Part shown: positions 15,139-52,774 of the stretch, piece by piece
Layout: every line of letters starts with the position of its first letter
Numbering within the stretch: the first letter of the stretch is position 1
IMG/VR virus record: IMGVR_UViG_3300028809_000011
Coordinates: 2,038-66,037 of that record
Direction: 5' to 3' (one strand)
DNA from: a virus
Length of the DNA stretch: 64,000 bases
Translations under genes and position numbers: made by a program
Notes under the pieces: generated by a model
The model's database searches: none
Told to the model about the DNA's origin: nothing
Seen by the model: only the letters and a program-made list of their open reading frames with translations

Positions 15139-15366
15139 CTAGTCACCGATGGCGGCCCGGACGAAGCAGTCCTTGGCCTCCAGGAGCTTGCGCAGCCCAG
15201 CGGTCAGTTCGGGGCCGTCGGGCAGGTCGATCACCATTTGGCTGGCCAGGATGTAGTTCCACTTGCTCACCAGTGCCAGCTTCTCCGGCAGGTGGTCATA
15301 CTCGAACCACCTCATGATCTGCTGGGTCGCCTGGTGCCTGTGTGCCCATTTGTTCTCAGACATCTT
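15139..15366 (-). CDS. small hypothetical protein
   Basis: frame of 15139..15684 from MSENKWAH; the upstream part of that ORF is out-of-frame shadow. Confidence 0.4.
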   Translation of the reverse strand, partial: KMSENKWAHRHQATQQIMRWFEYDHLPEKLALVSKWNYILASQMVIDLPDGPELTAGLRKLLEAKDCFVRAAIGD

Positions 15367-16177
15367 TGACCAGTCCCTTCCCATACTTCGCTTTTGTCTG
15401 GTCTGTGTTACCAGGACACCCTGACATCGAAGCCCTGTCCGAGCCGCCCTTGTACCAGGGGCAGAACGCGCACTCCCCCGACGGGGCTGCCGGGATCGCC
15501 TCGAATGACAGGTCTTCGCCCATGTCGATGAGCGTCCCGGCGATCTTGTACATCCTGTCCAGGGCAGCCTGGGCACGTTCGGGCCGGTAGTCGTCGACCC
15601 AGATTTGCATGTCCCGCAGCCAGCCCGACCGGGGCACCGCGACCAGGACGACCTTCGCGACTGGGGCACCGGCGTTGACGGCACCCCGCCCGTACAGGTT
15701 GACCTGGTCCTTGTAGTGCTCTGGTGGGCCGTCGGCCTTCCACGCCTTCAGCTTCGTCGGCGAGACGGTCTTCCAGTCGATGACGGCCTGGATCTCCGAG
15801 TCGTAGAGGTCCATGTGGCCGGTCACCATCGGGTCCGGCTGCACCGTCAGCTCGGTCTTCCAGCGCTCCATGAAGTGGACCTCCTGGAACCGGTTGACCG
15901 CCTTCTCCAGCCAGGCGTGCACGGCCGTGCCGACGATGGCCGGGAGTGGGTCGGACCACCAGTTGGCCTCAGGCACCCCGGCCAGCCGGTAGGCGATCTT
16001 CCGGTCGCACAGGCTGCCCAGCTCACTGGGGCCGATCGACTTCTGCATGGACCGCGATGAGTTCGACTCGGTCCACTTGATCACGTCGGTCAGGTCGGAC
16101 AGCAGCGCCGCACCCAGGGCCTCGTTCGGGTCGGTCGGCATGCAGGACGGGTGGTACTCCCCACCGGTGTCCAGCAG
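15356..16177 (-). CDS. PD-(D/E)XK exonuclease, Cas4/RecB-like with 4-Cys cluster
   Basis: N-terminal Cys pair (CRKC), central nuclease-like region, C-terminal CAFCP...C; start uncertain. Confidence 0.7.
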   Translation of the reverse strand: MLDTGGEYHPSCMPTDPNEALGAALLSDLTDVIKWTESNSSRSMQKSIGPSELGSLCDRKIAYRLAGVPEANWWSDPLPAIVGTAVHAWLEKAVNRFQEVHFMERWKTELTVQPDPMVTGHMDLYDSEIQAVIDWKTVSPTKLKAWKADGPPEHYKDQVNLYGRGAVNAGAPVAKVVLVAVPRSGWLRDMQIWVDDYRPERAQAALDRMYKIAGTLIDMGEDLSFEAIPAAPSGECAFCPWYKGGSDRASMSGCPGNTDQTKAKYGKGLVKDV

Positions 16178-16218
16178 CACCTTGTCCAGGATGCGCCCGC
16201 ACTTGCGGCACAGTGGGC

Positions 16219-16455
16219 TCAAGGCGTCATCACGTCCCGGTTGGCCAGGGGAAGCGGGTAGTCCCGGCCCACCCGGACCCACATCTTGCCCTGGGTGCGG
16301 AAGTCCTGGAGCTGCCAGTTCTGCCCGCAGTCGCATTCGACGACGGAGCCCACGCCGACGGCGTTGTTGCCGTCCTTGTCGGCCTGGGTGAGGTGGAATT
16401 CGTGGAGCTTGATCGGGCACGGGCATGGCGGCTCAACCCGCTTGATGAGCTTCAC
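16219..16455 (-). CDS. small Cys-containing hypothetical protein
   Basis: 78 aa with CPCP...CDCGQNW. Confidence 0.35.
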   Translation of the reverse strand: MKLIKRVEPPCPCPIKLHEFHLTQADKDGNNAVGVGSVVECDCGQNWQLQDFRTQGKMWVRVGRDYPLPLANRDVMTP

Positions 16456-23162: not shown

Positions 23163-23305
23163 TGTGCGGATGCAACAAAGGCAAGGACGGCAAGCCAGCC
23201 CAGTTCACCGTGACCACGGCGAAAGGCGAGACGAAGACGGTCGCCAGCGAGCAGGAGGCCCGAGCCATCGTCAGGGTCTCCGGCGGGGCCTACAAGAAGG
23301 CGTGA
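23163..23305 (+). CDS. small hypothetical protein (MCGCNKGKDG...)
   Basis: 47 aa after the protease gene; sub-threshold ORF. Confidence 0.3.
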
Positions 23306-23360
23306 GCCCGTGCTAGGGTGAAGGCAGAGTAGATGGCCCCGACACGGTCTTCTTCTTCCC

Positions 23361-23401
23361 TTCCCAGGAAGCGCCCCCAGGTACCTGTTCCCTGGGGGCG
23401 C
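23361..23401. terminator. bidirectional hairpin between convergent genes
   Basis: GCGCCCCCAGG-9nt-CCTGGGGGCGC perfect 11-bp stem. Confidence 0.5.
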
Positions 23402-23409
23402 TGCCGTGT

Positions 23410-23661
23410 CTACCGGGCCTGGGTGGTGACAACCTTGTTCTGGTCATCGACGATCTTCTGGAGCCCGGCCTTGGCCTCGGCCCACTTGGATTCGAAGTCG
23501 TTGAAGGTTGCCTTGAGCAGGGCCGGGTCACCTTCCAGTGCGAAGATCTTGAGCTTGTTCGGACCCAGCACCAGGGCGAAGTCCAGCCGGACGGCCAGTT
23601 CATCCGTGCCGTGGGCCAGGACGTAGTCCAGCATGGCTTCGACGTGCTTCTCGTTGAGCAA
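23410..23661 (-). CDS. hypothetical protein
   Basis: 83 aa, first gene of the minus-strand island. Confidence 0.45.
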   Translation of the reverse strand: MLNEKHVEAMLDYVLAHGTDELAVRLDFALVLGPNKLKIFALEGDPALLKATFNDFESKWAEAKAGLQKIVDDQNKVVTTQAR

Positions 23662-23810
23662 CCTGTTCTCCTTGATCTAGCTAGATGCTGGACTGGAACG
23701 CGGCCACGGTCAGGACGGGCTCGTCGTCTTCGCCGGTGATCCGGGCGACTGCCGCCGCGCTGGCGGCCTGGATCTGGGGGTCGCGCACGCGGCCCAGGCT
23801 GGGCTTGCGG

Positions 23811-24005
23811 CTAGTCCCAAAGGGCCGTGTGGCGGTGCTGGTAGTTGGGGAAGTCTCCATTGTCGAGTTCTCCTGTCGCGTTGTACTCCTTGACCATCCT
23901 GTCAAGGTCATCGCGTTCGCGCACCCGCTCCATGTTGGTCCACAGGTGGTGGATCAGCCAGCGGGCGGCCCTGGGCTTGAAGACGTGGCCGTCGGTACGG
24001 CTCAT
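23811..24005 (-). CDS. hypothetical protein
   Basis: 64 aa. Confidence 0.4.
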   Translation of the reverse strand: MSRTDGHVFKPRAARWLIHHLWTNMERVRERDDLDRMVKEYNATGELDNGDFPNYQHRHTALWD

Positions 24006-24029
24006 TGGAATCTCCTAGGTATTGGCTAC

Positions 24030-24278
24030 CTAGGACTCCGGCTTGAACAGCATCCCCACCCCCACAACCCTCTCGAACCCGTGCCGGTCACGGATCACGC
24101 ACACCTTGCCCCGCTTGGTCTCCACGAGGCCGAAAGTCCAGTAGGTCGACGGGTACCCGGCGGCCCAGATCGTCTCCTCCCACCACACCTTGTCACCTAG
24201 GGCGACCCTGGTGGCCGGGACCAGGCTGGCGAACCGGTCAAGACCCCGCTTACTCCACGGTACCTTCGGCACGGGCAT
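24030..24278 (-). CDS. hypothetical protein
   Basis: frame of 24030..24341 from MPVPKVPW. Confidence 0.35.
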   Translation of the reverse strand: MPVPKVPWSKRGLDRFASLVPATRVALGDKVWWEETIWAAGYPSTYWTFGLVETKRGKVCVIRDRHGFERVVGVGMLFKPES

Positions 24279-24537
24279 CCTTTCCCAGGAGCTTGAACAC
24301 CGCCTCCTCGACTTCCTTCTGGCGCAGCGAGGGACGGCCACCCTTTTTCTTGACCCGAGTGGCCTTCCAGTGCTCGATCTCGGGTGCGAGCCACAGCGGC
24401 GTAGCCCGCACCCGAGTCACCGGCTCAGGAAACGTCGGGTCCTCCTTGATCAACTGACAGACCCTGCCATCGGACAAGCCAAGGATCTGGCATACCTCAG
24501 CCGTCCCGACCAGCAGCTCAACGTTGACCCGGCGCAT
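24250..24537 (-). CDS. HTH DNA-binding protein (excisionase/MerR-like)
   Basis: ICQLIKEDPTFPEPV motif; paralogue of the next gene. Confidence 0.55.
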   Translation of the reverse strand: MRRVNVELLVGTAEVCQILGLSDGRVCQLIKEDPTFPEPVTRVRATPLWLAPEIEHWKATRVKKKGGRPSLRQKEVEEAVFKLLGKDARAEGTVE

Positions 24538-24538
24538 G

Positions 24539-24862
24539 TCAGCCCCTCAGTAGCGCATCAAGCCTCGCGGCCCGCTCAGCTTCCGGTACCTGGACAACCA
24601 GTGTTGGCTTCGGACCAGTCCTGTTGCGTTCCGACTTCGGCTCGTCCGGCCCGGCCATACCGTAGCCGGTGGCCTGCATCCACGCCTTCACCTCGTTCGC
24701 GTCCCAGATCCGGCCCAGCCTCAGTGACCACACCGGTTGGGGGAAGGTTGGGTCTTCCAGCAGAAGCTGGCCCACCCGCCCCTTCGACCTGTCGATGATC
24801 TCCGACACCTCGGCGATACCGCACAGGTCACGCAGGGCAATCAGAGTGTCCGGGTCCTTCAT
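24539..24862 (-). CDS. HTH DNA-binding protein (excisionase/MerR-like), paralogue
   Basis: VGQLLLEDPTFPQPV motif; ATGA overlap with the Ro60 stop codon. Confidence 0.55.
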   Translation of the reverse strand: MKDPDTLIALRDLCGIAEVSEIIDRSKGRVGQLLLEDPTFPQPVWSLRLGRIWDANEVKAWMQATGYGMAGPDEPKSERNRTGPKPTLVVQVPEAERAARLDALLRG

Positions 24863-26490
24863 GCCACAACCTCCCACGGCCACCGGCCAGCGGTGCCCTC
24901 CTCGATCATCGACATCAGCGGAAAGCACGCGTCGGTCAGTCCACCGAAGCTGTGCCGGAACTTGCCCGTCGGCGCGTGCCCCTGCCGGTAGCCCGCCAGG
25001 TTGAACGTGTAGAAGTGCTTGTCAGCCGGAACGGGGGCATCCACACCCCGGAAGCCGGAGTAGTCGGCCTGCTCGTCGGTGAGGATGACGACCCGGTCGT
25101 GACCCTTGTAGGTGGCCTGGACAGCCCGAGCCGTCGGGGTGCCACCACCGATGTTGTAGCCCAGGCGCTGCCAGGAAGCCATCTCGGCCAGCACATCCGC
25201 ACCCTTCGTGGTCTTGAACTCCATCAGCCACTTGCCGTAGCCCGAGGCGTAGGAGTACAGGTCCACCTGGTTGCCCGCCTTCGCCAGGGCGATGCCGAAC
25301 AGGGCAGCCGCGTCCCGGCGCTTCATCTCCGAGTGCTCGGAGAACGCGTGACCCATGGAGCCCGACGTGTCGACCAGGACCAGGGTCCGGCCCGGCAGAG
25401 TCGGGATGTTCTTCAGAGACATGTCCAGGGCCATGGACAGCGGGCCACCCCAGCGGGAGTGCGGGGCGTTGCGGTGCGCGGCCAGAAACCGGAACGGGAA
25501 GATCTTCGACTTCGCCACGGCCTGCTCGTCGCACAGGCGGCCCATGACGTATGCGGCCGTCTTCGCGTCGATGCCTGCCTGGTCGAAGTTGCGCAGGTTG
25601 CGCAGCAGCGCGAAGTAGCCCATGTTCGGGATGATCGCCTGCCACGCCTGCGCGTCCATTGGACCCTGGAGCCAGCCCGCCAGGGCCTCCCAGGTCATGC
25701 CCGCAGACTTGAGCGCATCCGAAGCCTCGTGCTCACCGAGGAAGCTACGACGCTCAGCAACGGGCCAGCCCATCATGATCTGACGGACACGCAGCATCTT
25801 CAGCGACTCGGGGATCTCCACCTCACCGTACTTGCGGGCCACCAGGTAGCCGAACAGGTCCGACTGCCACGGTGCCTTCGCCTGCGGGTGCAGCAGGTTC
25901 AGCAGCCGGTCAGGGGTGAACTCCTTCTTGTCCGAGTTGCCGTACTTCATCGCCGTGTACTCGTTGAACAGCTCGGTCATCGCGTCGGCCCAGCCACGCT
26001 TCAGCGGCTTCGGGATCTGCGTGTTCGGGTACTTGGAGAAGTAGTAGGCCACGGCCTCACCGACCTCATCCGCACGACCCAGGCCAGCCTTGGCCAGCTT
26101 GCGCGACCAGCCCTGGTCACCGGCGGCAACCTGCACCAAGGGCACGTTCTTCAGGACCAGGGCAGCCTCGACTGAGGCGACCACGGCAGCGGTGCGCATG
26201 TTGCCCGTGTTGCGCAGCCAGCCGATGAAGCCGAACATCCACTCCGGGTCGGCCTTGGCGACCTCACGGACCAGCTTCACGAACCGGTCGTCGGCCTGCT
26301 TCGCGGACTCGTAGAACTTGTCCTGGCCGAACATCGAGTTCGTCGCGAGCAGGAACAGGGCCGACTTGTTCTCGTAGCTGAAACCGGCCGCACCGTTGCT
26401 GGTGGTCGTGTCCGGGATCGGCATGGATACCAGGGGGCCAGCGGTCACCCGTGGGATCTTCCGGTTGTCCTTCGTGTTGAACGGAGTCAT
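24859..26490 (-). CDS. rsr: Ro60 orthologue (TROVE domain + C-terminal vWA)
   Basis: 543 aa; N-terminal GFSYENKSALFLLATNSMFGQDKFYES TROVE-like; C-terminal vWA motif LVLVDTSGSM. Confidence 0.8.
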   Translation of the reverse strand: MTPFNTKDNRKIPRVTAGPLVSMPIPDTTTSNGAAGFSYENKSALFLLATNSMFGQDKFYESAKQADDRFVKLVREVAKADPEWMFGFIGWLRNTGNMRTAAVVASVEAALVLKNVPLVQVAAGDQGWSRKLAKAGLGRADEVGEAVAYYFSKYPNTQIPKPLKRGWADAMTELFNEYTAMKYGNSDKKEFTPDRLLNLLHPQAKAPWQSDLFGYLVARKYGEVEIPESLKMLRVRQIMMGWPVAERRSFLGEHEASDALKSAGMTWEALAGWLQGPMDAQAWQAIIPNMGYFALLRNLRNFDQAGIDAKTAAYVMGRLCDEQAVAKSKIFPFRFLAAHRNAPHSRWGGPLSMALDMSLKNIPTLPGRTLVLVDTSGSMGHAFSEHSEMKRRDAAALFGIALAKAGNQVDLYSYASGYGKWLMEFKTTKGADVLAEMASWQRLGYNIGGGTPTARAVQATYKGHDRVVILTDEQADYSGFRGVDAPVPADKHFYTFNLAGYRQGHAPTGKFRHSFGGLTDACFPLMSMIEEGTAGRWPWEVVA

Positions 26491-26705
26491 GCCAGAACCC
26501 TTCCTGAAGCGATGAAACGGATGTGACCACGACCCCAGTCGGTGTCGTCAGAAGGGTCGTAGGTCCAGCCCTTCTTGGCTGCCTCACGCCTGGCCGCGCC
26601 GATCTCGTCGTAGGTGGACGTAAACGGCGGACAGTCGCAGTCGGGGCCGTCGCACGAGAGCACGATGTACAGCGCTCCACTCATCCCAAACCTCCTAAAA
26701 ACCAA
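26487..26705 (-). CDS. small Cys-containing protein co-transcribed upstream of rsr
   Basis: 72 aa; CDGPDCDCPP motif; 4-nt overlap with the rsr start. Confidence 0.5.
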   Translation of the reverse strand: MVFRRFGMSGALYIVLSCDGPDCDCPPFTSTYDEIGAARREAAKKGWTYDPSDDTDWGRGHIRFIASGRVLA

Positions 26706-26745
26706 TACCCCGCTAGTCTCGGAAGACAGCGGGGATCAATGGTGA

Positions 26746-26835
26746 GTGCCCGAGGAAATCAGTCGGCTACGGGTGTGGGTCGCGAGACCTTTTGCGAAAA
26801 GATAGCGAAGTACCCGTCGCCTGGGCACCGGGCAC
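26746..26835 (-). ncRNA. candidate small structured RNA (unit A) bounded by GUGCCCG...CGGGCAC terminal stem
   Basis: the same 7-bp terminal pairing recurs at units B and C; internal CUUUUCGCAAAAG hairpin; no tRNA-like module. Confidence 0.3.
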
Positions 26836-26859
26836 CCAAACGTTAGATCCCCAGAGTTT

Positions 26860-26990
26860 AAAGCGATCTCGGATTCCCGATTATGAGTCGGGGTGAGCGC
26901 CATGCTCACTCTGCCATGAGTGGCAGAGACAAGAATCGAACTTGTGAAGTAACCGAGGTCATTGGCACCTGGGAATATATGAAGTTGTGT
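26860..26990 (-). ncRNA. tRNA-like element: T-arm, closed acceptor hairpin, D-arm-like, CAU anticodon-like hairpin
   Basis: minus strand reads ACAAG-TTCGATT-CTTGT, then CTCTGCC-ACTCAT-GGCAGAG, then GAGC-ATGGC-GCTC, then CCCGA-CTCATAA-TCGGG. Confidence 0.35.
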
Positions 26991-26994
26991 GTTG

Positions 26995-27066
26995 CGCCCC
27001 CTACAGGATTCGAACCTGTATCCCCGGCTCCGGAAGCCGGTCCTCTATCCGTTGAGGTAAAAGGGC
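26995..27066 (-). tRNA. tRNA-Arg(CCG)
   Basis: cloverleaf by hand; acceptor pairs with 2 G-U; loop TTCCGGA; T-loop TTCGAAT. Confidence 0.65.
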
Positions 27067-27070
27067 TTTG

Positions 27071-27143
27071 CGTCCCCACCAGGAGTCGAACCTGGGCCTG
27101 TGGTTCCGTAGACCACCGTCTTGTCCTCTGGACCATGGAGACG
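27071..27143 (-). tRNA. tRNA-Arg(ACG)
   Basis: anticodon stem GTGGT/ACCAC, loop CTACGGA; T-arm CCAGG-TTCGACT-CCTGG; unusual D-arm. Confidence 0.6.
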
Positions 27144-27146
27144 TGT

Positions 27147-27297
27147 GGATGCCCGAGTATAAGTCGACTAACCTGCGGCTTTCGCCAGCGCTCTGCCAAC
27201 TGAGCTACAGCAGTGTTTCCACCACCGAAGGGACTCGAACCCCTGACCTCTTCATTAACAGTGAAGTAAGGCTCGTCTTTGGCACCGGGCATCCGTT
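27147..27297 (-). ncRNA. candidate Y-RNA-like permuted tRNA mimic (unit B, tRNA-Asn-derived)
   Basis: order on minus strand: 9-bp terminal stem GGAUGCCCG/CGGGCAUCC; Asn-type anticodon arm; T-arm; acceptor 3' strand CGGTGGT, loop GGAAAC, acceptor 5' strand ACTGCTG; canonical D-arm. Confidence 0.45.
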
Positions 27298-27310
27298 TTT
27301 AAGTTTTCAA

Positions 27311-27466
27311 GTTGTAGCGTGCCCGAGGAAAAGTCGGTCCGGCTTCGTAGGCGCGTCTTCCATTTCCGCCACTTCGGCTAGGCCGAAGGCAGGATTTGAA
27401 CCTGCACTCCCTTTCGGGACCCTCCTGTATAGAGAAGAACTCCGTACCTGGGCACCGGGCACTGCA
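27311..27466 (-). ncRNA. candidate Y-RNA-like permuted tRNA mimic (unit C, class-II tRNA-like)
   Basis: terminal stem GUGCCCG/CGGGCAC; GAAA-capped variable-arm-like hairpin; T-arm GCAGG-TTCAAAT-CCTGC; closed acceptor CTTCGGC-CTA-GCCGAAG; D-arm-like GCG-GAAATGGAAGA-CGC. Confidence 0.4.
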
Positions 27467-27472
27467 TTCAGT

Positions 27473-27547
27473 TGGAACGGTTGACCGGACTCGAACCGGC
27501 GTCATCTGCTTGGAAGGCAGAGGTTCTGGCCATTGAACTACAACCGC
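27473..27547 (-). tRNA. tRNA-Gly(TCC), CCA encoded
   Basis: acceptor GCGGTTG/CAACCGT (G1-U72); loop CTTCCAA; T-arm GCCGG-TTCGAGT-CCGGT. Confidence 0.65.
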
Positions 27548-27625
27548 GCAGGTCCCCGAGGAGTCGAACCCCGGTCTTTCCCAGCTTTGGAGGCCAGGTC
27601 CGTCCCACTTGACCCAAGTGCAAGG
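27548..27625 (-). pseudogene. tRNA-Trp(CCA)-like element lacking an acceptor 5' partner
   Basis: T-arm CGGGG-TTCGACT-CCTCG and loop CTCCAAA present, but the 5' region is a CACTTG-GGT-CAAGTG hairpin. Confidence 0.35.
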
Positions 27626-27922
27626 CGAGGAGTAGTCGCGGTGAGGGGGGCTTGTAGATCGCCAAATGATTTGAAGTACCCCTCGGTGCTTGGCACCGCC
27701 TTGCAGGACCCACTCTACTCACATATCTGCCAGACCTGCAAGCCCAATCCTGGGTCTTTTTATCCGACCTTCCGTGCATAAGTTGCAAAAGCGGACATAG
27801 AGGGTAACATCGGGAATGCAAGCTGATCATCGCTGGCTGCGGGCCGGGTGAACAGGGAGCGCTGCACCACCTACGCGCGTAACACCCGTCCACCTGCCCA
27901 TCCCCACGGAGGGATATCAGCG

Positions 27923-44243: not shown

Positions 44244-44370
44244 CCCGTGAGACGTTTCGGTCGTAAGATGACATACATGACCGAAACGGACACGTTCGAG
44301 GGTGAGATCACCCGTTGGCCGGAGGACGACGACCCCGAGACCCTGATCGGTGGGGACATGGGGGGCGACG

Positions 44371-44976
44371 ATGTCTAGCCCGTACCTGGCCCCTTCACTG
44401 GCCCGCCTCCGCACCTCGATCAACACGCGCTGGCCGGGCCGGGACAAGTCATCTGATGGCTGGATCGGGGACTCTGCCCACCAGTCCCGCACGTCGGATC
44501 ACAACCCTGCCGCCTCAGGTGTCGTGCGCGCCCTGGACATCGACAAGGACGGCGTCCACGTCCCGACGGTGCTGGCCGCTGCCCTGCTTCACCCATCGGT
44601 CCGGTATGTGATCCACAACCGGAAGATCTACCATGTGGACCGGCGGATGAAGCCTGCCAGCTACACCGGGTCGAACCCGCACACCGGCCACATCCACACC
44701 TCGATCCAGCACACGAAGGCCGCCGAGGCCGACAAGACCGACTGGCGTCCGGTCAGCTCCGCGTTCACGTGGCCGCTGCTGAAGGCCGGTATGGAGGGCA
44801 CGAACGTCCGCCAGCTCCAGGCATACCTGAACGGGCACGGCTATTCGCTGTCCCTGGATGGTGAATTCGGGCCTGCAACAGATTCGGCGGTTCGTCTATT
44901 CCAGTCCCGCTTCACACCTGATGATATTGACGGTGTGGTGGGGCCGAAGACGGCCCTGGCTCTGCGGACAAGGTAG
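44371..44976 (+). CDS. endolysin-like protein with C-terminal peptidoglycan-binding domain
   Basis: C-terminal LQAYLNGHGYSLSLDGEFGPATDSAVRLFQ matches PG_binding_1; GGGGGG RBS. Confidence 0.6.
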   Translation: MSSPYLAPSLARLRTSINTRWPGRDKSSDGWIGDSAHQSRTSDHNPAASGVVRALDIDKDGVHVPTVLAAALLHPSVRYVIHNRKIYHVDRRMKPASYTGSNPHTGHIHTSIQHTKAAEADKTDWRPVSSAFTWPLLKAGMEGTNVRQLQAYLNGHGYSLSLDGEFGPATDSAVRLFQSRFTPDDIDGVVGPKTALALRTR

Positions 44977-47991: not shown

Positions 47992-47992
47992 G

Positions 47993-48065
47993 CTCTCCCA
48001 CCTGGGCTCGAACCAGGGACCTGCGCATTAACAGTGCGCCGCTACTACCGCTGAGCTATAGGAGA
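47993..48065 (-). tRNA. tRNA-Asn(GTT)
   Basis: acceptor TCTCCTA/TGGGAGA; loop CTGTTAA; T-arm CCTGG-TTCGAGC-CCAGG. Confidence 0.7.
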
Positions 48066-48196
48066 AAGATGCAGGGCGCTGATCTCACAGTCGTTTAAGT
48101 GCCGCTGTTCCGGGCGACACCCCTGCTGGCACGTCAGGCCCCCGGCGTACCCCGGTGAGACTTCCCCGTGGAGGCGGGGACCGGCCTGTCGTGATA

Positions 48197-49159
48197 CTAC
48201 TTCATGATGAGGGAGCCGTCAGCCCCCACCACGATCGTGCACTCCTTGGCGACCTTGCACGCCTCCACCAGCGCGTTGGCCCTGGTGATCTCAATCTGGA
48301 GCTGTACCCATGCCGGGGTCGCGTACAGCCGGGCCAGCTCGGCAGCCGCGTTGGCCTTGCCCTTGGCCTCAGCCTCCAGCTTGGCCGCCTCGCCCTGAGC
48401 CTGGGCCAGGACCGCAGCGGCCTGCTCCACGGCCTTCTGCTTGGCGTTGCGGGCCTCCTGGATGCCAGGGTCGGCGTAGTCGATGTCCAGGATCGCGAAC
48501 TCGACGGCGGGGCAGTCGGCCTTGGCCCGGCTGAAGCTCGGACCGCAGAAGTAGTTTCCTCCCGCGAGCCGGTTCAGTTCGGATGCGAACGACGTGGCGA
48601 TGGCCTGCTGAGCCTGCGTCTGCACCGCGTCCACGTTGCCGACCAGGTGGTCAGCCTCATAGGTGCGGATGACGTCCCTGGTGACCTTCTGGAGGGCCGG
48701 GACGAGCAGGTCGTTGAGCATCCGGGTCCAGCCGTCAGGTGTGTCCGCGCCGTAGCGGCGGCCGACCTTCTCCCAGAACTCCTTGACCACGCCGCCGTCG
48801 TCATCACAGAAGGTGTTCAGGTAGAACTTGGTCTGGCTCCAGACCTTCACCGGCACACCGGAGGGCTGGTCCTTCTGCGGCTTCGTGGAGACCTGGATCG
48901 CGTCCTTGCTGTCCGAGCCGTCCACGTTGTTGATCGTCCACGTCCGCAGGGAGGTGGGGAGGTAGATGATCTGGTTGTTCCACTCGTAGTCGTCGGTCTG
49001 GCCGGGCTTGGTGCAGTGCCCGAACTGGTTGCCGTCCGAGCTGCCCTGCATGTAGTACAGGCCGACCTGGTCCGGGTCAGTGGTGCTGGTGCATCCGGTC
49101 AGGGCCACCAGGCCGACACAGGCTGCAAGGGCAACCTGGGCTGTGCGCGAGCGGTTCAC
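48197..49159 (-). CDS. SPFH/band-7-like lipoprotein
   Basis: lipobox LTGC signal peptide; prohibitin-like central region; Ala/Glu/Lys-rich C-terminus. Confidence 0.6.
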   Translation of the reverse strand: MNRSRTAQVALAACVGLVALTGCTSTTDPDQVGLYYMQGSSDGNQFGHCTKPGQTDDYEWNNQIIYLPTSLRTWTINNVDGSDSKDAIQVSTKPQKDQPSGVPVKVWSQTKFYLNTFCDDDGGVVKEFWEKVGRRYGADTPDGWTRMLNDLLVPALQKVTRDVIRTYEADHLVGNVDAVQTQAQQAIATSFASELNRLAGGNYFCGPSFSRAKADCPAVEFAILDIDYADPGIQEARNAKQKAVEQAAAVLAQAQGEAAKLEAEAKGKANAAAELARLYATPAWVQLQIEITRANALVEACKVAKECTIVVGADGSLIMK

Positions 49160-49361
49160 GTGTCTCCTTCTTCTTCTTCCGTCCCAGGAACATGACCAGG
49201 AGCAGCTTGAGGGCCACTCCGAAGCCGACGAGGAGCCCGATCGTGATCAGGCCCATCACGGCGTAGATGATCGCTTTACCCATCGAACCTCTTCGGGTAG
49301 ATCTGCTACTGGAGATAACCCTAGCAGTGCCGCGCTACATGCGCAACTCGAAGATGGAGAA

Positions 49362-50462
49362 CTACTTGAAGATCAGGACGCGGGAGCCGATGGGCAGGTG
49401 CCGGTTCACCGACGTCGACTGGATGAACACGTCGTAGTCCCCACCCTTGACCGGCTGCGGGCGCACGCGGGTGCTGGTGGACCCGAGGCCCAGCAGCTTC
49501 TTGCACTGCTCGCCCTTGTAGACCTGCTTGGTCTGCCGGTGGATCAGGACGACCTCCTTGTGCGGGTCGAACTTCTCCGACTTGACCAGCTCGTAGAAGG
49601 TGGACCCGGCGACGTAGCGGCGGCCCGTCTCCTCGATGAACGGCATGATCTCGACGTGCTTGATGCCGTTCGGGTTCTTCTTCGTGATCGACTTGTTCGG
49701 GATCACCACCGGCAGTGTGGATGTGGACGCCAGGGCCACCGGCACGATCATGAAGTTCGCCGGGTCGACGGGAGCCAGGCCCGACGAGGCCACCTGGGCA
49801 GCGCTGACGTTCTGGGCGAACAAGGTGTTGGTTCCCCGGACACCGGCGGCACGGCCCGTGAAGTAGGACGACGTCGCGGCCTTGATCTCCTCACCGACCT
49901 CAGCGACACCGGCCGCGCTCGTATTCCACACGGCGATGTTGCCAGGCTCGAACCCGAAGCCCTGCACCCTGATCTTGGACTGGAAGTTCGGGACCAGCAC
50001 GCCGACGGTCCACTCTGCTCCCAGGGTGGCAAGCAGGATGCGCATCAGGTTCGGATTGGTCGCCGGGGTAGCCCGGTGCGAAGTGTTCTCCTCGCCATCG
50101 GTCAACGCGAACACCAGGAAGGCGTGGTCGCCGTACATGGTCGCGGTCTTCCTCAGGTCCCCGATGGCCTGGGTGATGCCCGACAGCAGCGGTGTTCCGC
50201 CGCTGGGCCGGTAGTGGCCTCGCAGGCTGGGCAGGCGCAGGACGTCGGTGTCGAAGGCCACGCAGGTGACCGTGGTCTCGTGGAAGATGTAGATCGACAC
50301 GCGGGTCTCGTCGCCGGTGTCCTTGGAGAGCTGCGCCAGCCATGCCACCTGGCCGTCAAGGACGTCCATGATCGGCCCGGTGAGCCCGTAGTCCCTGATG
50401 GAGCTGGACCCGTCCACGACCAGGGCGACGTGGTTGATCCTCTTCTTTTCCAGCAGCGTCAT
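49362..50462 (-). CDS. vWA domain protein
   Basis: vWA metal-binding motif VALVVDGSSS...TDGEENTS; internal start MTLLEKK. Confidence 0.65.
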   Translation of the reverse strand: MTLLEKKRINHVALVVDGSSSIRDYGLTGPIMDVLDGQVAWLAQLSKDTGDETRVSIYIFHETTVTCVAFDTDVLRLPSLRGHYRPSGGTPLLSGITQAIGDLRKTATMYGDHAFLVFALTDGEENTSHRATPATNPNLMRILLATLGAEWTVGVLVPNFQSKIRVQGFGFEPGNIAVWNTSAAGVAEVGEEIKAATSSYFTGRAAGVRGTNTLFAQNVSAAQVASSGLAPVDPANFMIVPVALASTSTLPVVIPNKSITKKNPNGIKHVEIMPFIEETGRRYVAGSTFYELVKSEKFDPHKEVVLIHRQTKQVYKGEQCKKLLGLGSTSTRVRPQPVKGGDYDVFIQSTSVNRHLPIGSRVLIFK

Positions 50463-50498
50463 GTTTCGTACCTTCCCATGCACGTATGACACGTTCCG

Positions 50499-50572
50499 AG
50501 CCTCGTGCAGGAATCGAACCCGCAACCGTCCGCTTACAAGGCGGATGCTCTACCAGATTGAGCTAACGAGGC
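50499..50572 (-). tRNA. tRNA-Thr(TGT)
   Basis: acceptor GCCTCGT/ACGAGGC; loop CTTGTAA; T-arm GCGGG-TTCGATT-CCTGC. Confidence 0.7.
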
Positions 50573-50623
50573 GATCAGGCCGGGTTCCAGCCGGGCTGGG
50601 TCTGGAGCTGAAGGCTCCGGGAG

Positions 50624-50695
50624 TGTCCCCACCGGGAATCGAACCCGGATCACCGCCTTAGGAGTGCGGTGCTCTGTCCCTTGAGCTATGAAGAC
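50624..50695 (-). tRNA. tRNA-Arg(CCT)
   Basis: acceptor GTCTTCA/TGGGGAC; loop CTCCTAA. Confidence 0.65.
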
Positions 50696-50850
50696 GTGCA
50701 CTCTGCGTAGCAGGTGCGGTTGTGCTCGGCACAGTAACCGCCGTACACCCAGCCTCTCCAGCAGTTTCGGTAGCCGAACCGGTGGTGCTTGTGGTTGCAC
50801 CTACCCATGATCTTGTACCTGAAGTACCACCACTTCTGTCCAATTGTCAC
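50696..50850 (-). CDS. possible micro-ORF encoding a Cys/His/aromatic-rich cationic peptide (40-54 aa)
   Basis: read by hand on minus strand: (VTIGQKWWYFRYKI)MGRCNHKHHRFGYRNCWRGWVYGGYCAEHNRTCYAECTSS; fills a 155-nt spacer between two tRNAs. Confidence 0.25.
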
Positions 50851-50851
50851 G

Positions 50852-50924
50852 TGTCCCCCCTCGGGCTCGAACCGAGGACCACCGACTTAAAAGGACGGCG
50901 CTCTACCATCTGAGCTAGGGGGAC
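50852..50924 (-). tRNA. tRNA-Lys(TTT)
   Basis: acceptor GTCCCCC/GGGGGAC; loop CTTTTAA; T-arm CTCGG-TTCGAGC-CCGAG. Confidence 0.65.
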
Positions 50925-50930
50925 GTTGCG

Positions 50931-51002
50931 TGTCTACACCAGGGGTCGAACCTGGGCGCACCGGGTTTCAGCCGGTAGCTCTACCTACTGAGCTATGCAG
51001 AC
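50931..51002 (-). tRNA. tRNA-Phe(GAA)
   Basis: acceptor GTCTGCA/TGTAGAC; loop CTGAAAC; canonical D-arm. Confidence 0.7.
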
Positions 51003-51071
51003 GGGGTGGGCTTTTCTGCCGATTTGAACGGCCAGGTGCCCACTTGAACCTGTCGGTCTGCGCATGACCCC

Positions 51072-51144
51072 GTCCTCACCCCAGGAGTCGAACCTGGTGC
51101 CCCTGAGTTATCAGCTCAGTGCTCTGACCGGTGAGCTAGGCGAG
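51072..51144 (-). tRNA. tRNA-Ile(GAT)
   Basis: acceptor CCTCGCC/GGTGAGG; loop CTGATAA. Confidence 0.65.
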
Positions 51145-51280
51145 GTTGGTGCGGGCGGTGCATTCGGTGTCGTGGAGCACTCGTTTGGTCCACCTGGTAA
51201 GCCAGCCAGGAGGCCCGCGACCCCTAGTGGTACCCCAGGGGTAGACCGGCACGGACACCAACCCGTGAACGCCGGTGGAG

Positions 51281-51353
51281 TAGGCCCTGAGGGATTCGAA
51301 CCCCCAACCACCGGTATGTGACACCGGTGCTCTACCAGTTGAGCTAAAGGCCC
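51281..51353 (-). tRNA. tRNA, anticodon probably CAC (Val)
   Basis: canonical D- and T-arms; anticodon stem ACCGGT / loop GTCACAT is atypical. Confidence 0.5.
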
Positions 51354-51445
51354 TGGTGCATGACACTCCCACCCGTGGCTGACGGGCTTCCCGATTAAGC
51401 TCGGGCCAGGCTGCGAAGCCATCGTGCCTCCATTCGTGCCATGCG

Positions 51446-51517
51446 TGGACAGGGAAGGTGTCGAACCTTCTGCCTCCCGCGTGTCGGGCGGGCGCTCTAC
51501 CGATGAGCTACATGTCC
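51446..51517 (-). tRNA. tRNA-Val(GAC)
   Basis: loop CCGACAC (C33); acceptor has one mismatch. Confidence 0.55.
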
Positions 51518-51531
51518 TTTTACATGAACCG

Positions 51532-51604
51532 TGGACCCGGAGGGACTTGAACCCCCATCCTCCACCATGCCGAGGTGGCGCTCTACCGTTAGAGCTACAG
51601 GCCC
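51532..51604 (-). tRNA. tRNA-Ala(GGC)
   Basis: loop TCGGCAT; T-arm GGGGG-TTCAAGT-CCCTC. Confidence 0.55.
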
Positions 51605-51741
51605 TCGACCGCCCCCAGCCATATGAACTGAACGCGGTCTAGTCAGGTTCCGGGCTCGCCCACCTGACAGGGGACATTGCGGGCTCACTATCTCTTTGTT
51701 GCCCGCGTTGACAGTCCAGGGATAGCTGTGGACTGCGCCTC

Positions 51742-51820
51742 GTGGGACGGGTGTGGATCGAACACACCATGCCGGAGCGAGGTGGTTACAGCACCCCTGG
51801 AACACCAGTTCCTTCCGTCC
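51742..51820 (-). tRNA. tRNA-Tyr(GTA), class II
   Basis: acceptor GGGACGG/CCGTCCC perfect; loop CTGTAAC; long variable arm. Confidence 0.65.
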
Positions 51821-51891
51821 CATACCTGGCCAGTTCCCGCTGACCAGGGCCTTGCATCCTTCTGCACCAACCAATCGTCGCAATGATCGCG

Positions 51892-51974: not shown

Positions 51975-51975
51975 G

Positions 51976-52062: not shown

Positions 52063-52068
52063 GTACGC

Positions 52069-52410: not shown

Positions 52411-52429
52411 CTTAATGCTTTAGACACAG

Positions 52430-52765: not shown

Positions 52766-52774
52766 CTGCGAAAG

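What the first reader, a model, noticed from the sequence alone, without database searches (positions are those of the whole stretch)
24859..26705. Ro60 (TROVE+vWA) orthologue in a minus-strand island between phage head genes, co-transcribed with a small Cys protein and two paralogous HTH genes
The 543-aa protein has an N-terminal TROVE-like region and a C-terminal vWA motif DTSGSM, as in Rsr/Ro60. It sits in an opposite-strand island (23.4-27.8 kb) inserted between the protease/scaffold and capsid genes. Its stop overlaps (ATGA) the start of an HTH gene at 24539-24862, which is duplicated at 24250-24537. Upstream are a 72-aa CDGPDCDCPP protein, tRNA-like RNAs and tRNAs.
Ro60 with its RNA partner is known as an RNA quality-control and PNPase-tethering system in bacteria. 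Here it travels with a tRNA-rich phage, which suggests a role in tRNA or rRNA surveillance, or in counter-defence during infection. No rtcB/rtcA is seen nearby, so the operon context differs from the Salmonella rsr-yrlBA-rtcBA arrangement.
Basis: partly seen in the sequence, partly recalled or inferred. Interest (0 to 1): 0.75.

Follow-up and report, generated by a model that had tools for sequence, protein, structure and literature searches.

The report
Phage Ro60 gene with Y-RNA array
An uncultured high-GC phage of actinobacteria carries a Ro60-type ring-shaped RNA-binding protein and, just upstream, five small "Y RNA" partner genes interleaved with tRNA genes; this kind of system is already known in bacteria and phages, so it is a well-resolved new example rather than a new kind of thing.

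Summary
ORF 24859-26490(-) encodes a 543-aa Ro60-family protein. It matches Pfam TROVE and vWA and has a complete MIDAS motif. Its AlphaFold model matches only Ro60 structures over the full length.

They are packed together with tRNA-Gly, two tRNA-Arg genes and one tRNA-like element that lacks a D arm. Each Y module has a terminal 5'/3' stem, a 5' GGUGCC motif, a UACUUC motif and a 3' ..CUC strand. Module B has the YrlA-type permuted tRNA-like core.

A promoter-like site precedes the array, and a terminator-like hairpin follows it, abutting the ribosome-binding site of a 65-aa Cys-rich ORF. After that ORF come Ro, two paralogous HTH genes and three small ORFs.

The island lies between the protease/scaffold gene and the capsid gene in six other metagenomic contigs (Ro 51-92% identical). 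Similar modules lie upstream of Ro in 69 of 80 IMG/VR loci and in a Streptomyces locus.

Phage Ro60 proteins and their Y RNAs are already published (Chen 2014; phiLo 2025), so this is a new member of a known kind. The unusual points are the number of Y RNAs and the replacement of the canonical CGAA motif by CCAA/CCCA in all five. Interest is about 0.33.

The parts
27712..27741 (-). Promoter-like site TTGCAG-N18-TAGAGT, directly upstream of the first Y module and divergent from the capsid gene
   Evidence: Located. The TTGC and TAG.GT positions are invariant in 7 related loci (alignment A3). The generic sigma-70 scan did not call it. TAGAGT fits the Streptomyces-type -10 consensus TAGRRT, which I cite from my own knowledge.
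27619..27705 (-). Y-RNA-like module E: a simple stem-bulge-stem hairpin of the YrlB type
   Evidence: Folds with an 8-bp terminal stem. RNAalifold on 7 orthologues gives 7 of 19 pairs with compensatory changes. Carries GGUGCC..UACUUC.
27548..27618 (-). tRNA-like element without a D arm (anticodon-like loop CUCCAAA, T arm GGUUCGACU)
   Evidence: Called by neither ARAGORN nor the Rfam tRNA model. Conserved in 6 relatives, with compensatory changes in the anticodon-like stem; L014 has a more complete, tRNA-like sequence with a D arm at the same place, which ARAGORN calls only as an undetermined tRNA.
27473..27547 (-). tRNA-Gly(UCC)
   Evidence: ARAGORN; Rfam tRNA 67.7 bits.
27319..27462 (-). Y-RNA-like module A, with a T arm, a closed 7-bp acceptor-like stem and a D-like hairpin
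   Evidence: Fold, boundaries, motif. Orthologues are present in L004, L007, L008 and L013.
27147..27294 (-). Y-RNA-like module B, YrlA type: terminal stem, YUAY plus V hairpin (loop CUGUUAA), T arm, closed 8-bp acceptor-like stem, D arm
   Evidence: Rfam YrlA RF02553 gives a local hit of 25.7 bits (gathering score 69) on model positions 24-84, E=0.0017. In the 10-sequence alignment A2, which includes two Streptomyces copies, 16 of 33 pairs are compensatory. The Rfam 'tRNA' hit at 27220-27283 (29.4 bits) is part of this module.
27070..27142 (-). tRNA-Arg(ACG), conserved directly after module B in the relatives
   Evidence: ARAGORN. Found at the same position in L004, L007, L008, L011, L012, L013 and L015.
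26994..27066 (-). tRNA-Arg(CCG)
   Evidence: ARAGORN; Rfam 62 bits.
26847..26976 (-). Y-RNA-like module C: a circularly permuted tRNA-like domain (T arm, closed 8-bp acceptor-like stem, D-like hairpin, anticodon-like arm with loop CUCAUAA) on a Y stem
   Evidence: RNAalifold on 7 orthologues gives 18 of 41 pairs compensatory. Fold.
26743..26838 (-). Y-RNA-like module D: a simple hairpin of the YrlB type
   Evidence: 9-bp terminal stem. RNAalifold on 7 sequences, including one Streptomyces copy, gives 4 of 15 pairs compensatory.
26697..26734 (-). Terminator-like bulged hairpin (CCCCGCU GUCU UCCG AGAC U AGCGGGG) plus a U-rich tract, abutting the ribosome-binding site of the next ORF
   Evidence: Folds at -18.6 kcal/mol. 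Partly picked up by the terminator scan, which on its own is not above chance. Compensatory changes keep the stem in L007, L008, L011, L012 and L013.
26487..26684 (-). Small Cys-rich ORF (65 aa, ..SCDGPDCDCPP..), whose stop overlaps the Ro start
   Evidence: No family hit in Pfam, PHROGs, PADLOC or NCBIfam. tblastn finds homologues only in L004 and L011, with a 64-aa ORF at the same place in L013. L007, L008, L012 and L014 have no small ORF between the hairpin and Ro.
24859..26490 (-). Ro60-family protein (HEAT-repeat/TROVE ring plus a vWA domain with MIDAS)
   Evidence: Pfam; PHROG 850 'RNA-binding protein' 3.6e-44; phiLo Ro60 9KOP/9L5Y E=1.2e-19. AF2 pLDDT 83.4. The top 13 Foldseek PDB hits are all Ro60.
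24539..24862 (-). HTH1, an AlpA/excisionase-like small DNA-binding protein (107 aa) whose start overlaps the Ro stop
   Evidence: Weak PADLOC PDC-M06B hit on the HTH region only. Present only in the closest relatives L004, L013 and L007.
24250..24537 (-). HTH2, a paralogue of HTH1 (95 aa)
   Evidence: Pfam Phage_AlpA E=3.7e-4, just below its cut-off; PHROG 597 DNA-binding protein; paralogy E=3e-15.
24030..24278 (-). Conserved 82-aa ORF of unknown function
   Evidence: tblastn gives 52-89% identity downstream of Ro in L004, L007, L008, L011, L013, L014 and L055. No family hit.
23811..24005 (-). Conserved 64-aa ORF of unknown function
   Evidence: tblastn gives 54-100% identity in the same clade, and 38% in L012. 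No family hit.
23410..23661 (-). Last ORF of the island (83 aa, TTG start after AAGGAG)
   Evidence: No family hit and no tblastn hit in the related loci.

Best explanation
This is a phage-borne Ro60/Y-RNA ribonucleoprotein module.

Shown here:
- The protein has the Ro60 ring-plus-vWA fold.
- Five structured RNAs lie immediately upstream on the same strand. They share a conserved terminal-stem scaffold and belong to the same RNA family found upstream of Ro genes in a Streptomyces locus and in most viral Ro loci.
- The whole island is conserved in position in a clade of related phages.

Inferred mechanism:
1. Host RNA polymerase starts at the conserved TTGCAG-N18-TAGAGT site and makes one precursor, E - tRNA-like - tRNA-Gly - A - B - tRNA-Arg - tRNA-Arg - C - D.
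2. Host RNase P and 3'-end processing enzymes cut out the tRNAs and so release the Y RNAs. This matches the Yrn2-tRNA(Asp)-Yrn1 precursor of Deinococcus radiodurans.
3. The bulged hairpin with its U tract stops most transcripts. The fraction that reads through becomes the mRNA for the small ORF, Ro, the HTH genes and the small ORFs, so the RNAs outnumber the protein.
4. Ro binds the 5' GGUGCC strand and terminal stem of each Y RNA.
5. The variable distal domains (tRNA-like in A, B and C; plain hairpins in D and E) connect the ring to host partners. The most likely partner is PNPase or another 3'-5' exoribonuclease, as in RYPER complexes and in phage phiLo, so that host RNA decay is redirected or dampened during infection.
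For: Protein identity:
- Pfam TROVE and vWA matches.
- An invariant MIDAS motif in 35 homologues.
- An AF2 model with pLDDT 83.4 and pTM 0.78.
- The top 13 Foldseek PDB hits are all Ro60 (phiLo, Xenopus, human, Deinococcus Rsr) at probability 1.00 and TM 0.58-0.74. The next hit has E=0.045.
- The basic pair K141/K142 of phiLo Ro60, which contacts Yrl2, aligns with K164 (invariant) and R165 (conserved in at least 90% of sequences).

RNAs:
- The signature occurs 5 times against 0.17 expected, all in the array.
- All five modules fold with a terminal stem.
- Compensatory pairs: module B 16/33, C 18/41, E 7/19, D 4/15.
- With both ends anchored on conserved motifs, the terminal stem has at least 6 contiguous pairs in 65% of 228 family members, against 11% for permuted partners. 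It takes 56 different sequences.
- Module B matches the tRNA-like core of Rfam YrlA and aligns with Streptomyces copies that score 42.9 and 29.1 bits on the same core.

Association with Ro:
- There are 198 same-strand signature hits in 69 of 80 IMG/VR Ro loci, nearly all within 1.2 kb upstream of Ro, against 14 hits on the other strand.
- Similar modules fill the gaps between tRNAs next to Ro in phages GiJojo and Atuin.

Synteny:
- The island lies between the capsid and protease/scaffold genes in L004, L007, L008, L011, L012 and L013.

Transcription signals:
- The promoter-like site and the hairpin are conserved, the hairpin with compensatory changes.

Precedents in the literature:
- Y RNAs lie within 4 kb of Ro60 on the same strand in 254 bacteria and 22 phages.
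- A polycistronic Yrn2-tRNA-Yrn1 precursor is known.
- phiLo Ro60 binds two upstream Y-like RNAs and host PNPase, and attenuates PNPase.
Against: - No expression, processing or binding data exist for this phage. Every mechanistic step is inferred.
- All five modules lack the CGAA motif that contributes to binding by phiLo Ro60; single changes in it raise KD three- to four-fold. It is also part of the YrlA definition. Here it reads CCAA or CCCA.
- Rfam's YrlA model reaches only 25.7 bits against a gathering score of 69.
- The NCBIfam Rsr equivalog model is far below its cut-off.
- No PNPase, RtcB or RtcA domain was found in the 30 large ORFs tested, so any nuclease partner would have to come from an unknown host.
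- The generic promoter scan found no sigma-70 site, and the terminator scan alone is not above chance (5 found against 2.7 expected).
Confidence: 0.6

Rival explanations
1. RNA quality control for the phage's own translation apparatus. Ro threads misfolded phage tRNAs or host rRNA precursors through its central hole and hands them to nucleases. The Y RNAs act mainly as gates that regulate access to the ring, not as tethers to PNPase.
For: The phage carries 24 tRNA genes in this window. In relatives such as GiJojo and Atuin, Ro sits inside large tRNA arrays. Ro60 is known to bind misfolded non-coding RNAs (introduction of the phiLo paper).
Against: No direct evidence exists. Some phages with few tRNAs also carry Ro, for example the 43-kb Xanthomonas phages. 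This reading overlaps with the best explanation rather than excluding it.
Confidence: 0.2
2. Anti-defence decoys. The tRNA-like domains of modules A, B and C and the tRNA-like element that lacks a D arm mimic tRNAs. They soak up or mislead host tRNA-targeting nucleases, or other tRNA-binding defence or stress factors, and Ro stabilises them.
For: Three modules carry T arms, closed acceptor-like stems and anticodon-like 7-nt loops (CUGUUAA, CUCAUAA). The jumbo-phage survey places phage ROT/TROVE proteins among RNA-repair and conflict systems.
Against: The same tRNA-like architecture, including the CUGUUAA loop, is found in one of the two aligned Streptomyces copies, so it is not a phage-specific adaptation. 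No RNA ligase or repair enzyme was detected nearby.
Confidence: 0.12
3. The repeated RNA modules are not Ro partners. They are degenerate tRNA genes, processing signals or attenuators of a tRNA operon that happens to lie next to Ro.
For: ARAGORN and the Rfam tRNA model partly call some of them as tRNAs (L008 and L011). They are interleaved with true tRNAs.
Against: Modules D and E have no tRNA features, yet they share the same 5' motif and terminal stem. The signature tracks the Ro gene and its strand in 69 of 80 loci, including loci with only two modules. The signature is absent from the second tRNA cluster of this window at 48-59 kb. The 5' motif resembles GGUCCGA, the motif contacted by Xenopus Ro60.
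Confidence: 0.05

Closest known systems
Actinobacterial Rsr with YrlA/YrlB Y RNAs (Mycobacterium smegmatis; Chen et al. 2014, PMC4201824)
   Same: Several Y RNAs are encoded just upstream of Ro on the same strand. One type has a permuted tRNA-like domain (V, T, acceptor-like stem, D). Another is a plain hairpin. A 7-8-bp acceptor-like stem is the feature that allows RNase P cleavage in M. smegmatis. A Streptomyces locus (L010) carries three modules with the same scaffold.
   Different: This locus has five modules instead of two or three, punctuated by three tRNAs. It is carried by a phage inside the head-gene block. The 5' motif is GGUGCC(A/C)A rather than GGUGCGAAGG, so CGAA is lost. The protein is only about 47% identical to Streptomyces TROVE proteins.
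Thermus phage phiLo Ro60 with Yrl1/Yrl2 (NAR 2025, PMC12135203; PDB 9KOP, 9L5Y)
   Same: It is a phage-encoded Ro60 with Y-like RNAs directly upstream. It is the best solved relative by sequence (E=1.2e-19) and by fold (E=1.2e-16). The basic pair that contacts the RNA is conserved.
   Different: Identity is about 22%. phiLo has two simple CGAA-containing Yrl RNAs and no tRNA-like domain or interleaved tRNAs is described. Its host and genome type differ. PNPase binding was shown there and is only inferred here.
Actinophage 'Ro-like RNA binding protein' genes (Streptomyces phages GiJojo and BRock, Arthrobacter phage Atuin, Gordonia phage Neville)
   Same: These are 39-45% identical full-length homologues. 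In GiJojo and Atuin the gene is embedded among tRNA genes, and unannotated Y-like modules (GAUGCG/GAAGCG..UACUUC..UUUCU) fill the gaps.
   Different: In those phages Ro lies in large tRNA arrays or among non-structural genes, not between the protease/scaffold and capsid genes. Their 5' motif variant is different. There is no DNA similarity to the window.
Deinococcus radiodurans Rsr-Yrn1/Yrn2 and the RYPER complex with PNPase
   Same: The ring-plus-vWA fold matches (2NVO). Y RNAs are made as a polycistronic precursor with a tRNA. One Y RNA has tRNA-like features.
   Different: No sequence-level match at E<0.01. The Y RNA lineage differs, and the T and D arms are oriented differently. It is a cellular, stress-induced system.
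Salmonella rsr-yrlBA-rtcBA operon
   Same: Ro sits with YrlA-type and YrlB-type RNAs.
   Different: No RtcB, RtcA or RtcR was found here. The likely promoter is of the housekeeping type, not sigma-54.

Membership tests
Ro60 / Rsr (TROVE) protein family | N-terminal HEAT-repeat (TROVE) ring domain | tested here: met
   Pfam TROVE E=1.6e-15. The AF2 model is helical over residues 41-361. It gives full-length Foldseek matches to Ro60 structures only: 13 hits with E<=3.8e-10, the next at 0.045.
Ro60 / Rsr (TROVE) protein family | C-terminal vWA domain with a MIDAS motif (DxSxS...T...D) | tested here: met
   VWA_2 E=5.8e-6, 27.3 bits against a cut-off of 27. D374, S376, S378, T451 and D472 are invariant in 35 homologues.
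Ro60 / Rsr (TROVE) protein family | Basic surface that binds the Y RNA stem | tested here: inconclusive
   phiLo K141/K142 align with K164/R165 of the window protein. The other phiLo contact residues (R137, R163, R178, K193) have a nearby rather than aligned basic residue. No structure of a complex was available for mapping.
Ro60 / Rsr (TROVE) protein family | Strict equivalence to bacterial Rsr (NCBIfam NF041674 equivalog) | tested here: not met
   17.3 bits against a cut-off of 900. It is a family member by fold and Pfam domain, not an Rsr equivalog.
Ro60 / Rsr (TROVE) protein family | Physical binding of Y RNAs or misfolded RNAs | not testable with these tools
   Needs gel-shift assays, immunoprecipitation or CLIP.
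Bacterial Y RNA, YrlA type (Rfam RF02553; Chen 2014) | Encoded within about 4 kb of Ro60 on the same strand | tested here: met
   All five modules lie 250-1,215 nt upstream of the Ro start on the minus strand.
Bacterial Y RNA, YrlA type (Rfam RF02553; Chen 2014) | Stem formed by pairing of the 5' and 3' ends | tested here: met
   Each of the five modules has 6-9 contiguous pairs, anchored between GGUGCC and CUC. The stem covaries across orthologues.
Bacterial Y RNA, YrlA type (Rfam RF02553; Chen 2014) | GNCGAAN0-1G motif near the 5' end (proposed Rsr contact; related to GGUCCGA) | tested here: not met
   The 5' motif is GGUGCCAA in E, B and C and GGUGCCCA in A and D, with no CGAA. Sister loci L010, L011 and L012 have GGUGCGAAGG-type motifs. 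The window motif matches GGUCCGA at 5 of 7 positions. Module B has a GGCGAAAG, but it lies in a distal hairpin, not at the 5' end.
Bacterial Y RNA, YrlA type (Rfam RF02553; Chen 2014) | tRNA-like domain: YUAY plus V hairpin, T arm, acceptor-like stem-loop, D arm | tested here: met
   Module B has all of these. Modules A and C have a T arm, a closed acceptor-like stem and D-like hairpins. Modules D and E lack them and resemble YrlB-type hairpins.
Bacterial Y RNA, YrlA type (Rfam RF02553; Chen 2014) | Score at or above the Rfam gathering threshold | tested here: not met
   25.7 bits against 69 for module B. There are no YrlA hits at gathering in the window or in L001-L003, L008 or L010. Streptomyces copies also reach only 42.9 and 29.1 bits, so the model under-detects this actinobacterial lineage.
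Bacterial Y RNA, YrlA type (Rfam RF02553; Chen 2014) | [quoted passage not shown] | not testable with these tools
   Only the sequence prerequisites are seen: GGUUCGA T loops, a GUAGCUCA..GG..AGAGC D arm in module B, and 7-8-bp acceptor-like stems.
RYPER (Ro60 - Y RNA - PNPase) machine | Y RNA-mediated tethering of Ro60 to PNPase | not testable with these tools
   No PNPase domain was found in the 30 window ORFs tested. Any partner would be the host enzyme.
rsr-yrlBA-rtcBA RNA repair operon (Salmonella type) | RtcB ligase and RtcA cyclase adjacent to rsr | tested here: not met
   The genes downstream of Ro are two HTH genes and three small ORFs without family hits. No RtcB or RtcA was found among the tested ORFs.

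The most novel reading that the evidence does not exclude
The window clade may have re-coded Ro/Y-RNA recognition. All five to seven Y RNAs of each locus carry GGUGCC where the Streptomyces locus examined and most of the 80 viral loci carry GGUGCG, so CGAA becomes CCAA. The Ro proteins of the same clade share substitutions, 6 of 11 of them (Q158, F175, G184, T192, P193, R195) within the stretch that aligns with the Y-RNA-contacting helices of phiLo Ro60.

This could make the phage RNP orthogonal to a host Rsr/Y system. The phage ring would load only phage Y RNAs, and the expanded set of five distal domains would connect it to several different host partners at once.
Probability: 0.12. Interest if true: 0.6.

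Novelty: new member of a known kind. Interest (0 to 1): 0.33.

Why it matters
This locus extends the phage Ro60/Y-RNA association to a clade of uncultured siphovirus-like phages of high-GC actinobacteria. In that clade the module is fixed in the middle of the head-gene block.

It also gives a compact, alignable set of Y RNAs. The set comprises five paralogues per genome, orthologues in seven or more genomes, and a host-type outgroup. Current tools miss or mislabel them: Rfam YrlA scores below threshold, and ARAGORN or the Rfam tRNA model call parts of them as tRNAs.

The set could be used to build a better covariance model for actinobacterial and phage Y RNAs. It could also be used to test which nucleotides Ro reads. 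The natural CGAA-to-CCAA switch is a ready-made experiment for that.

Biologically it adds weight to the idea that phages import Ro RNPs to manipulate host RNA decay. It does not reveal a new kind of system.

Tried and rejected
- Megablast of 23300-27900 against 50,697 phage records found no match. The phage is new at the DNA level, so no annotated near-relative could be used.
- Rfam at gathering thresholds found only tRNAs in the window and in five related loci. YrlA appears only as sub-threshold local hits.
- The generic sigma-70 scan found no promoters, and the terminator scan was not above chance. The promoter and terminator assignments therefore rest on conservation.
- I tried to fetch the experimentally validated M. 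smegmatis YrlA locus, using the reverse complement of the published probe as a pattern in genome contigs. There were 0 hits.
- The supplement of Chen 2014 is not held. Two reviews, PMC10870794 and PMC6047535, are not held either. The link to M. smegmatis YrlA/YrlB therefore goes through the Streptomyces locus L010 and the Rfam core, not through a direct alignment.
- PADLOC gave no hit for Ro. It gave only weak HTH-only hits for the two HTH genes, so I rejected the reading of the island as a known defence or anti-defence system.
- Pfam scans of 30 large ORFs elsewhere in the window found no RtcB, RtcA, PNPase or RNA ligase. The scan was not exhaustive for small ORFs.
- I considered that the repeats might be generic intergenic phage repeats. 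I rejected this because they covary as RNA stems, are strand-specific, and follow the Ro gene across unrelated phages.
- I did not run homologue searches for the small Cys protein against the large databases. Local tblastn against 93 loci already showed that it is an optional, clade-restricted accessory.

Full report
**1. Observation**

The ORF at 24859..26490 on the minus strand encodes 543 aa. Pfam finds three domains:
- TROVE, E=1.6e-15, aligned only over residues 279-339.
- VWA_2, E=5.8e-6.
- vWA_Ro60, weakly, at E=0.012.

PHROG 850 ('RNA-binding protein') matches at 3.6e-44. The DTSGSM motif is the first element of a complete MIDAS site. D374, S376, S378, T451 and D472 are invariant in an alignment of 35 homologues that are 46-93% identical to the query.

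- The Ro stop overlaps the start of a 107-aa HTH gene (ATGA).
- That gene is followed after 1 nt by a 95-aa paralogue, 51% identical over 49 aa, E=3e-15.
- The stop of a small Cys-rich ORF overlaps the Ro start.

That small ORF most likely begins at the ATG at 26684, behind AGGAGG, which makes it 65 aa rather than 72.

The flanking plus-strand genes are a MuF-like protein, a 628-aa protease/scaffold-like protein, and the major head protein.

**2. The protein**

By sequence, the only solved relative is the Ro60 of Thermus phage phiLo (9KOP/9L5Y, E=1.2e-19, aligned nearly end to end).

An AlphaFold2 model built on the 35-sequence alignment has mean pLDDT 83.4 and pTM 0.78. It shows about twenty helices followed by an alpha/beta domain. 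Foldseek against the PDB returns thirteen significant hits. All are Ro60 proteins (phiLo, Xenopus, human, Deinococcus Rsr), full length, at probability 1.00 and TM 0.58-0.74. The next hit is at E=0.045.

The phiLo residues K141/K142, which contact Yrl2 RNA, align with K164 and R165; K164 is invariant and R165 is conserved in at least 90% of the sequences.

The NCBIfam Rsr equivalog model scores only 17 bits against a cut-off of 900. The protein is therefore a Ro60-family member, not a close orthologue of characterised Rsr.

Homologues are abundant:
- 4,099 proteins at E<=1e-20. Metagenomic relatives reach 92% identity, and Streptomyces chromosomal TROVE proteins are about 47% identical.
- 96 isolated phage genomes, where the gene is annotated 'Ro-like RNA binding protein'.
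- More than 580 IMG/VR contigs.

**3. The RNAs**

The 1.2 kb between the capsid gene and the small ORF is fully occupied on the minus strand. In order:

| Coordinates (-) | Feature |
|---|---|
| 27741-27712 | promoter-like site |
| 27705-27619 | module E |
| 27618-27548 | tRNA-like element without a D arm |
| 27547-27473 | tRNA-Gly(UCC) |
| 27462-27319 | module A |
| 27294-27147 | module B |
| 27142-27070 | tRNA-Arg(ACG) |
| 27066-26994 | tRNA-Arg(CCG) |
| 26976-26847 | module C |
| 26838-26743 | module D |
| 26734-26697 | hairpin plus U tract |

The five modules share one scaffold:
- a 5' strand of a terminal stem, then GGUGCC(A/C)A;
- a second helix, then (U)UACUUC;
- a variable domain;
- the return strand of the second helix, then CGACU (in A, B, D and E), a few nucleotides and CUC;
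- the 3' strand of the terminal stem.

The signature GGTGCS-N8-17-TWCTTC occurs five times in the window, only here, against 0.17 expected.

The terminal stem differs between modules but stays complementary: GCCCG/CGGGC, CCCAG/CUGGG and GCAAGGC/GCCUUGC.

The distal domains differ between modules:
- Module B has the order V hairpin, T arm, closed acceptor-like stem, D arm. This is the circularly permuted tRNA-like domain that defines YrlA. Rfam's YrlA model aligns to exactly that core, at 25.7 bits, E=0.0017, below the gathering score of 69.
- Modules A and C have T arms, closed 7-8-bp acceptor-like stems and D-like hairpins. C also has an anticodon-like arm.
- Modules D and E are plain hairpins, like YrlB.

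**4. Comparative support**

Six metagenomic contigs (L004, L007, L008, L011, L012, L013) encode Ro proteins 51-92% identical to the query. All have the same arrangement: capsid gene, then RNA array, Ro and small genes on the opposite strand, then the protease/scaffold gene, MuF and portal. A seventh relative, IMG/VR locus L014 (63% identical), has the same RNA array directly upstream of Ro. Across these seven loci the arrays hold four to seven modules and one to three tRNAs.

RNAalifold on orthologous modules recovers the proposed helices, with compensatory changes in:
- 16 of 33 pairs for B;
- 18 of 41 pairs for C;
- 7 of 19 pairs for E;
- 4 of 15 pairs for D.

A Streptomyces locus (L010) has three modules with the same scaffold upstream of its TROVE gene. 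Two of them hit the YrlA core at 42.9 and 29.1 bits.

In 80 IMG/VR loci the signature occurs 198 times on the Ro strand, in 69 loci, and almost always within 1.2 kb upstream of Ro. It occurs 14 times on the other strand. Two modules per locus is the commonest number, and 14 loci have five or more.

When both ends are anchored on the conserved motifs, the terminal stem has at least 6 contiguous pairs in 65% of 228 modules. The figure is 11% when the 5' strands are permuted among modules. The stem takes 56 different inner sequences.

Phages GiJojo and Atuin have unannotated modules of the same kind (GAUGCG/GAAGCG...UACUUC...UUUCU) in the gaps between tRNAs next to Ro.

**5. Transcription signals**

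TTGCAG-N18-TAGAGT lies just upstream of module E, and its key positions are invariant in seven loci. The generic scan did not call it. Its -10 hexamer fits the Streptomyces-type consensus, which I cite from my own knowledge.

After module D there is a bulged 11-bp hairpin followed by a U-rich tract. Compensatory changes keep it in five relatives. It directly abuts the ribosome-binding site of the next ORF, which is the small ORF, or Ro itself in loci that lack the small ORF. No room is left for a separate promoter. I therefore infer one transcription unit, with partial termination in front of the protein genes.

**6. Mechanism**

Shown: a Ro60-fold protein; adjacent, conserved, covarying Y-RNA-like genes; conserved position of the island.

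Inferred:
- A polycistronic precursor is cut by the tRNA-processing enzymes, as for the Yrn2-tRNA(Asp)-Yrn1 precursor of D. radiodurans.
- Ro binds the 5' motif and stem. GGUGCCA shares 5 of 7 positions with GGUCCGA, which Xenopus Ro60 contacts.
- The distal domains recruit host partners, most plausibly PNPase. This is as in RYPER complexes and in phiLo, where the phage RNP binds host PNPase and attenuates it.

No PNPase, RtcB or RtcA domain was detected in the 30 larger ORFs of the window that were tested.

The rivals are RNA quality control of phage tRNAs, tRNA-mimic decoys against host nucleases, and tRNA-derived elements unrelated to Ro. They are weighed in the rival-explanations section. 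The last one is poorly compatible.

**7. What is unusual**

- All five modules have C where Streptomyces and most viral loci have G (GGUGCC against GGUGCG). The CGAA motif is therefore absent. That motif is part of the YrlA definition, and it is shown to contribute to binding in phiLo.
- The variant is uniform within loci: 60 of 68 loci with two or more hits are uniform. The C variant is shared by W, L004, L007, L008, L013 and L014, but not by L011 or L012.
- Ro proteins of the C-variant loci share 11 residues that are absent from a G-variant comparison group (L010, L011 and L012 plus seven actinobacterial chromosomal homologues whose motif was assumed, not checked). Six of them lie at 158-195, within the region that aligns with the RNA-contacting helices of phiLo Ro60. 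This hints at co-evolution, but shared ancestry confounds it.
- The island sits inside the head-gene block and is transcribed against it.
- The accessory genes are clade-restricted. The two HTH genes occur only in the closest relatives. The 65-aa Cys protein is optional. The 82-aa and 64-aa ORFs are the most constant companions.

**8. Comparison and verdict**

Phage Ro60 genes with adjacent Y-like RNAs were reported in 22 phages in 2014. One was studied structurally in 2025. 'Ro-like RNA binding protein' is a routine actinophage annotation. Jumbo-phage surveys note ROT/TROVE proteins with a tRNA-like partner.

The window phage is new at the DNA level. Its capsid protein is at most 48% identical to that of an isolated phage (Actinoplanes phage phiAsp2), and about 37% identical to those of Gordonia phages. 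The system itself is a new member of a known kind.

The interest is moderate to low, about 0.33. It rests mainly on the expanded, tRNA-punctuated Y-RNA array and on the coordinated loss of the CGAA motif.

Noticed in passing
window 27548-27618 (-): A conserved tRNA-like element without a D arm lies between module E and tRNA-Gly. It has an anticodon-like loop CUCCAAA (CCA, as in tRNA-Trp) and a T arm. Neither ARAGORN nor Rfam calls it. Its anticodon-like stem covaries in six relatives, and L014 has a more complete, tRNA-like sequence with a D arm at the same place, which ARAGORN calls only as an undetermined tRNA. In GiJojo and Atuin a true tRNA-Trp(CCA) lies near Ro.
   Followed up: partly
window 26697-26734 (-), and the homologous sites in L004, L007, L008, L011, L012, L013: A bulged hairpin plus U-rich tract lies between the last Y module and the ribosome-binding site of the next ORF. 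Compensatory changes keep it. It may be a partial terminator that sets the RNA-to-protein ratio, or a stabilising 3' or 5' structure.
   Followed up: partly
window 26743-27705 (-); loci L004-L093: The Ro-binding-type 5' motif comes in four variants: GGUGCG, GAUGCG, GGUGCC and GAUGCC. It is almost always uniform within a locus (60 of 68 loci). This suggests concerted evolution of all Y RNAs of a genome, possibly together with their Ro protein.
   Followed up: partly
window 27220-27283 (-); L008 5098-5184 and 5627-5715; L011 5408-5479; L012 5840-5911; L014 1872-1943, 2205-2289 and 2587-2664: tRNA finders mislabel parts of Y modules as tRNAs. Examples are the Rfam tRNA hit of 29.4 bits in the window and ARAGORN calls of 'tRNA-Val', 'tRNA-Ala', 'tRNA-Gly' or 'tRNA-???' in relatives. 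This is an annotation pitfall for tRNA counts in actinophages that carry Ro.
   Followed up: yes
window about 27295-27318 and 26977-26993 (-); the same spacers in L004, L007, L008 and L010: A conserved AU-richer spacer, ACAACUU(C/G)A(U/A)A, precedes many modules, including those of the Streptomyces locus. It may be a processing site. It was not analysed further.
   Followed up: no
window 27253-27263 (-) and alignment A2: The 7-nt loop CUGUUAA of the V hairpin of the YrlA-type module is nearly invariant from phages to Streptomyces (9 of the 10 sequences have CUGUUAA or CUAUUAA), more conserved than the stems around it. It resembles an anticodon loop (GUU).
   Followed up: no
L013 3961-4386: An HNH endonuclease gene (Pfam HNH_3) is inserted inside the Y-RNA/tRNA array of one relative, between the tRNA-Arg pair and module C. 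This points to a mobile-element insertion into the array.
   Followed up: no
window 47992-59269 (-): A second, larger tRNA cluster of 21 tRNAs lies on the minus strand. It is interrupted by ORFs that include an SPFH/Band 7 protein (48197-49159) and an HNH endonuclease (55162-55737). It contains no Y-module signature.
   Followed up: partly
window 24030-24278 and 23811-24005 (-): The 82-aa and 64-aa ORFs downstream of the HTH genes are the most constant protein companions of Ro in this phage clade (52-100% identity in seven or more loci). They hit no family in any library. In L007 and L008 the 64-aa homologue is part of a protein of about 137 aa.
   Followed up: partly
window 15356-16426 (-) and 44350-44976 (+): A PD-(D/E)XK nuclease-family protein and a protein with a peptidoglycan-binding domain (a likely lysin component) were seen while surveying the window for RNA-repair genes.
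   Followed up: no
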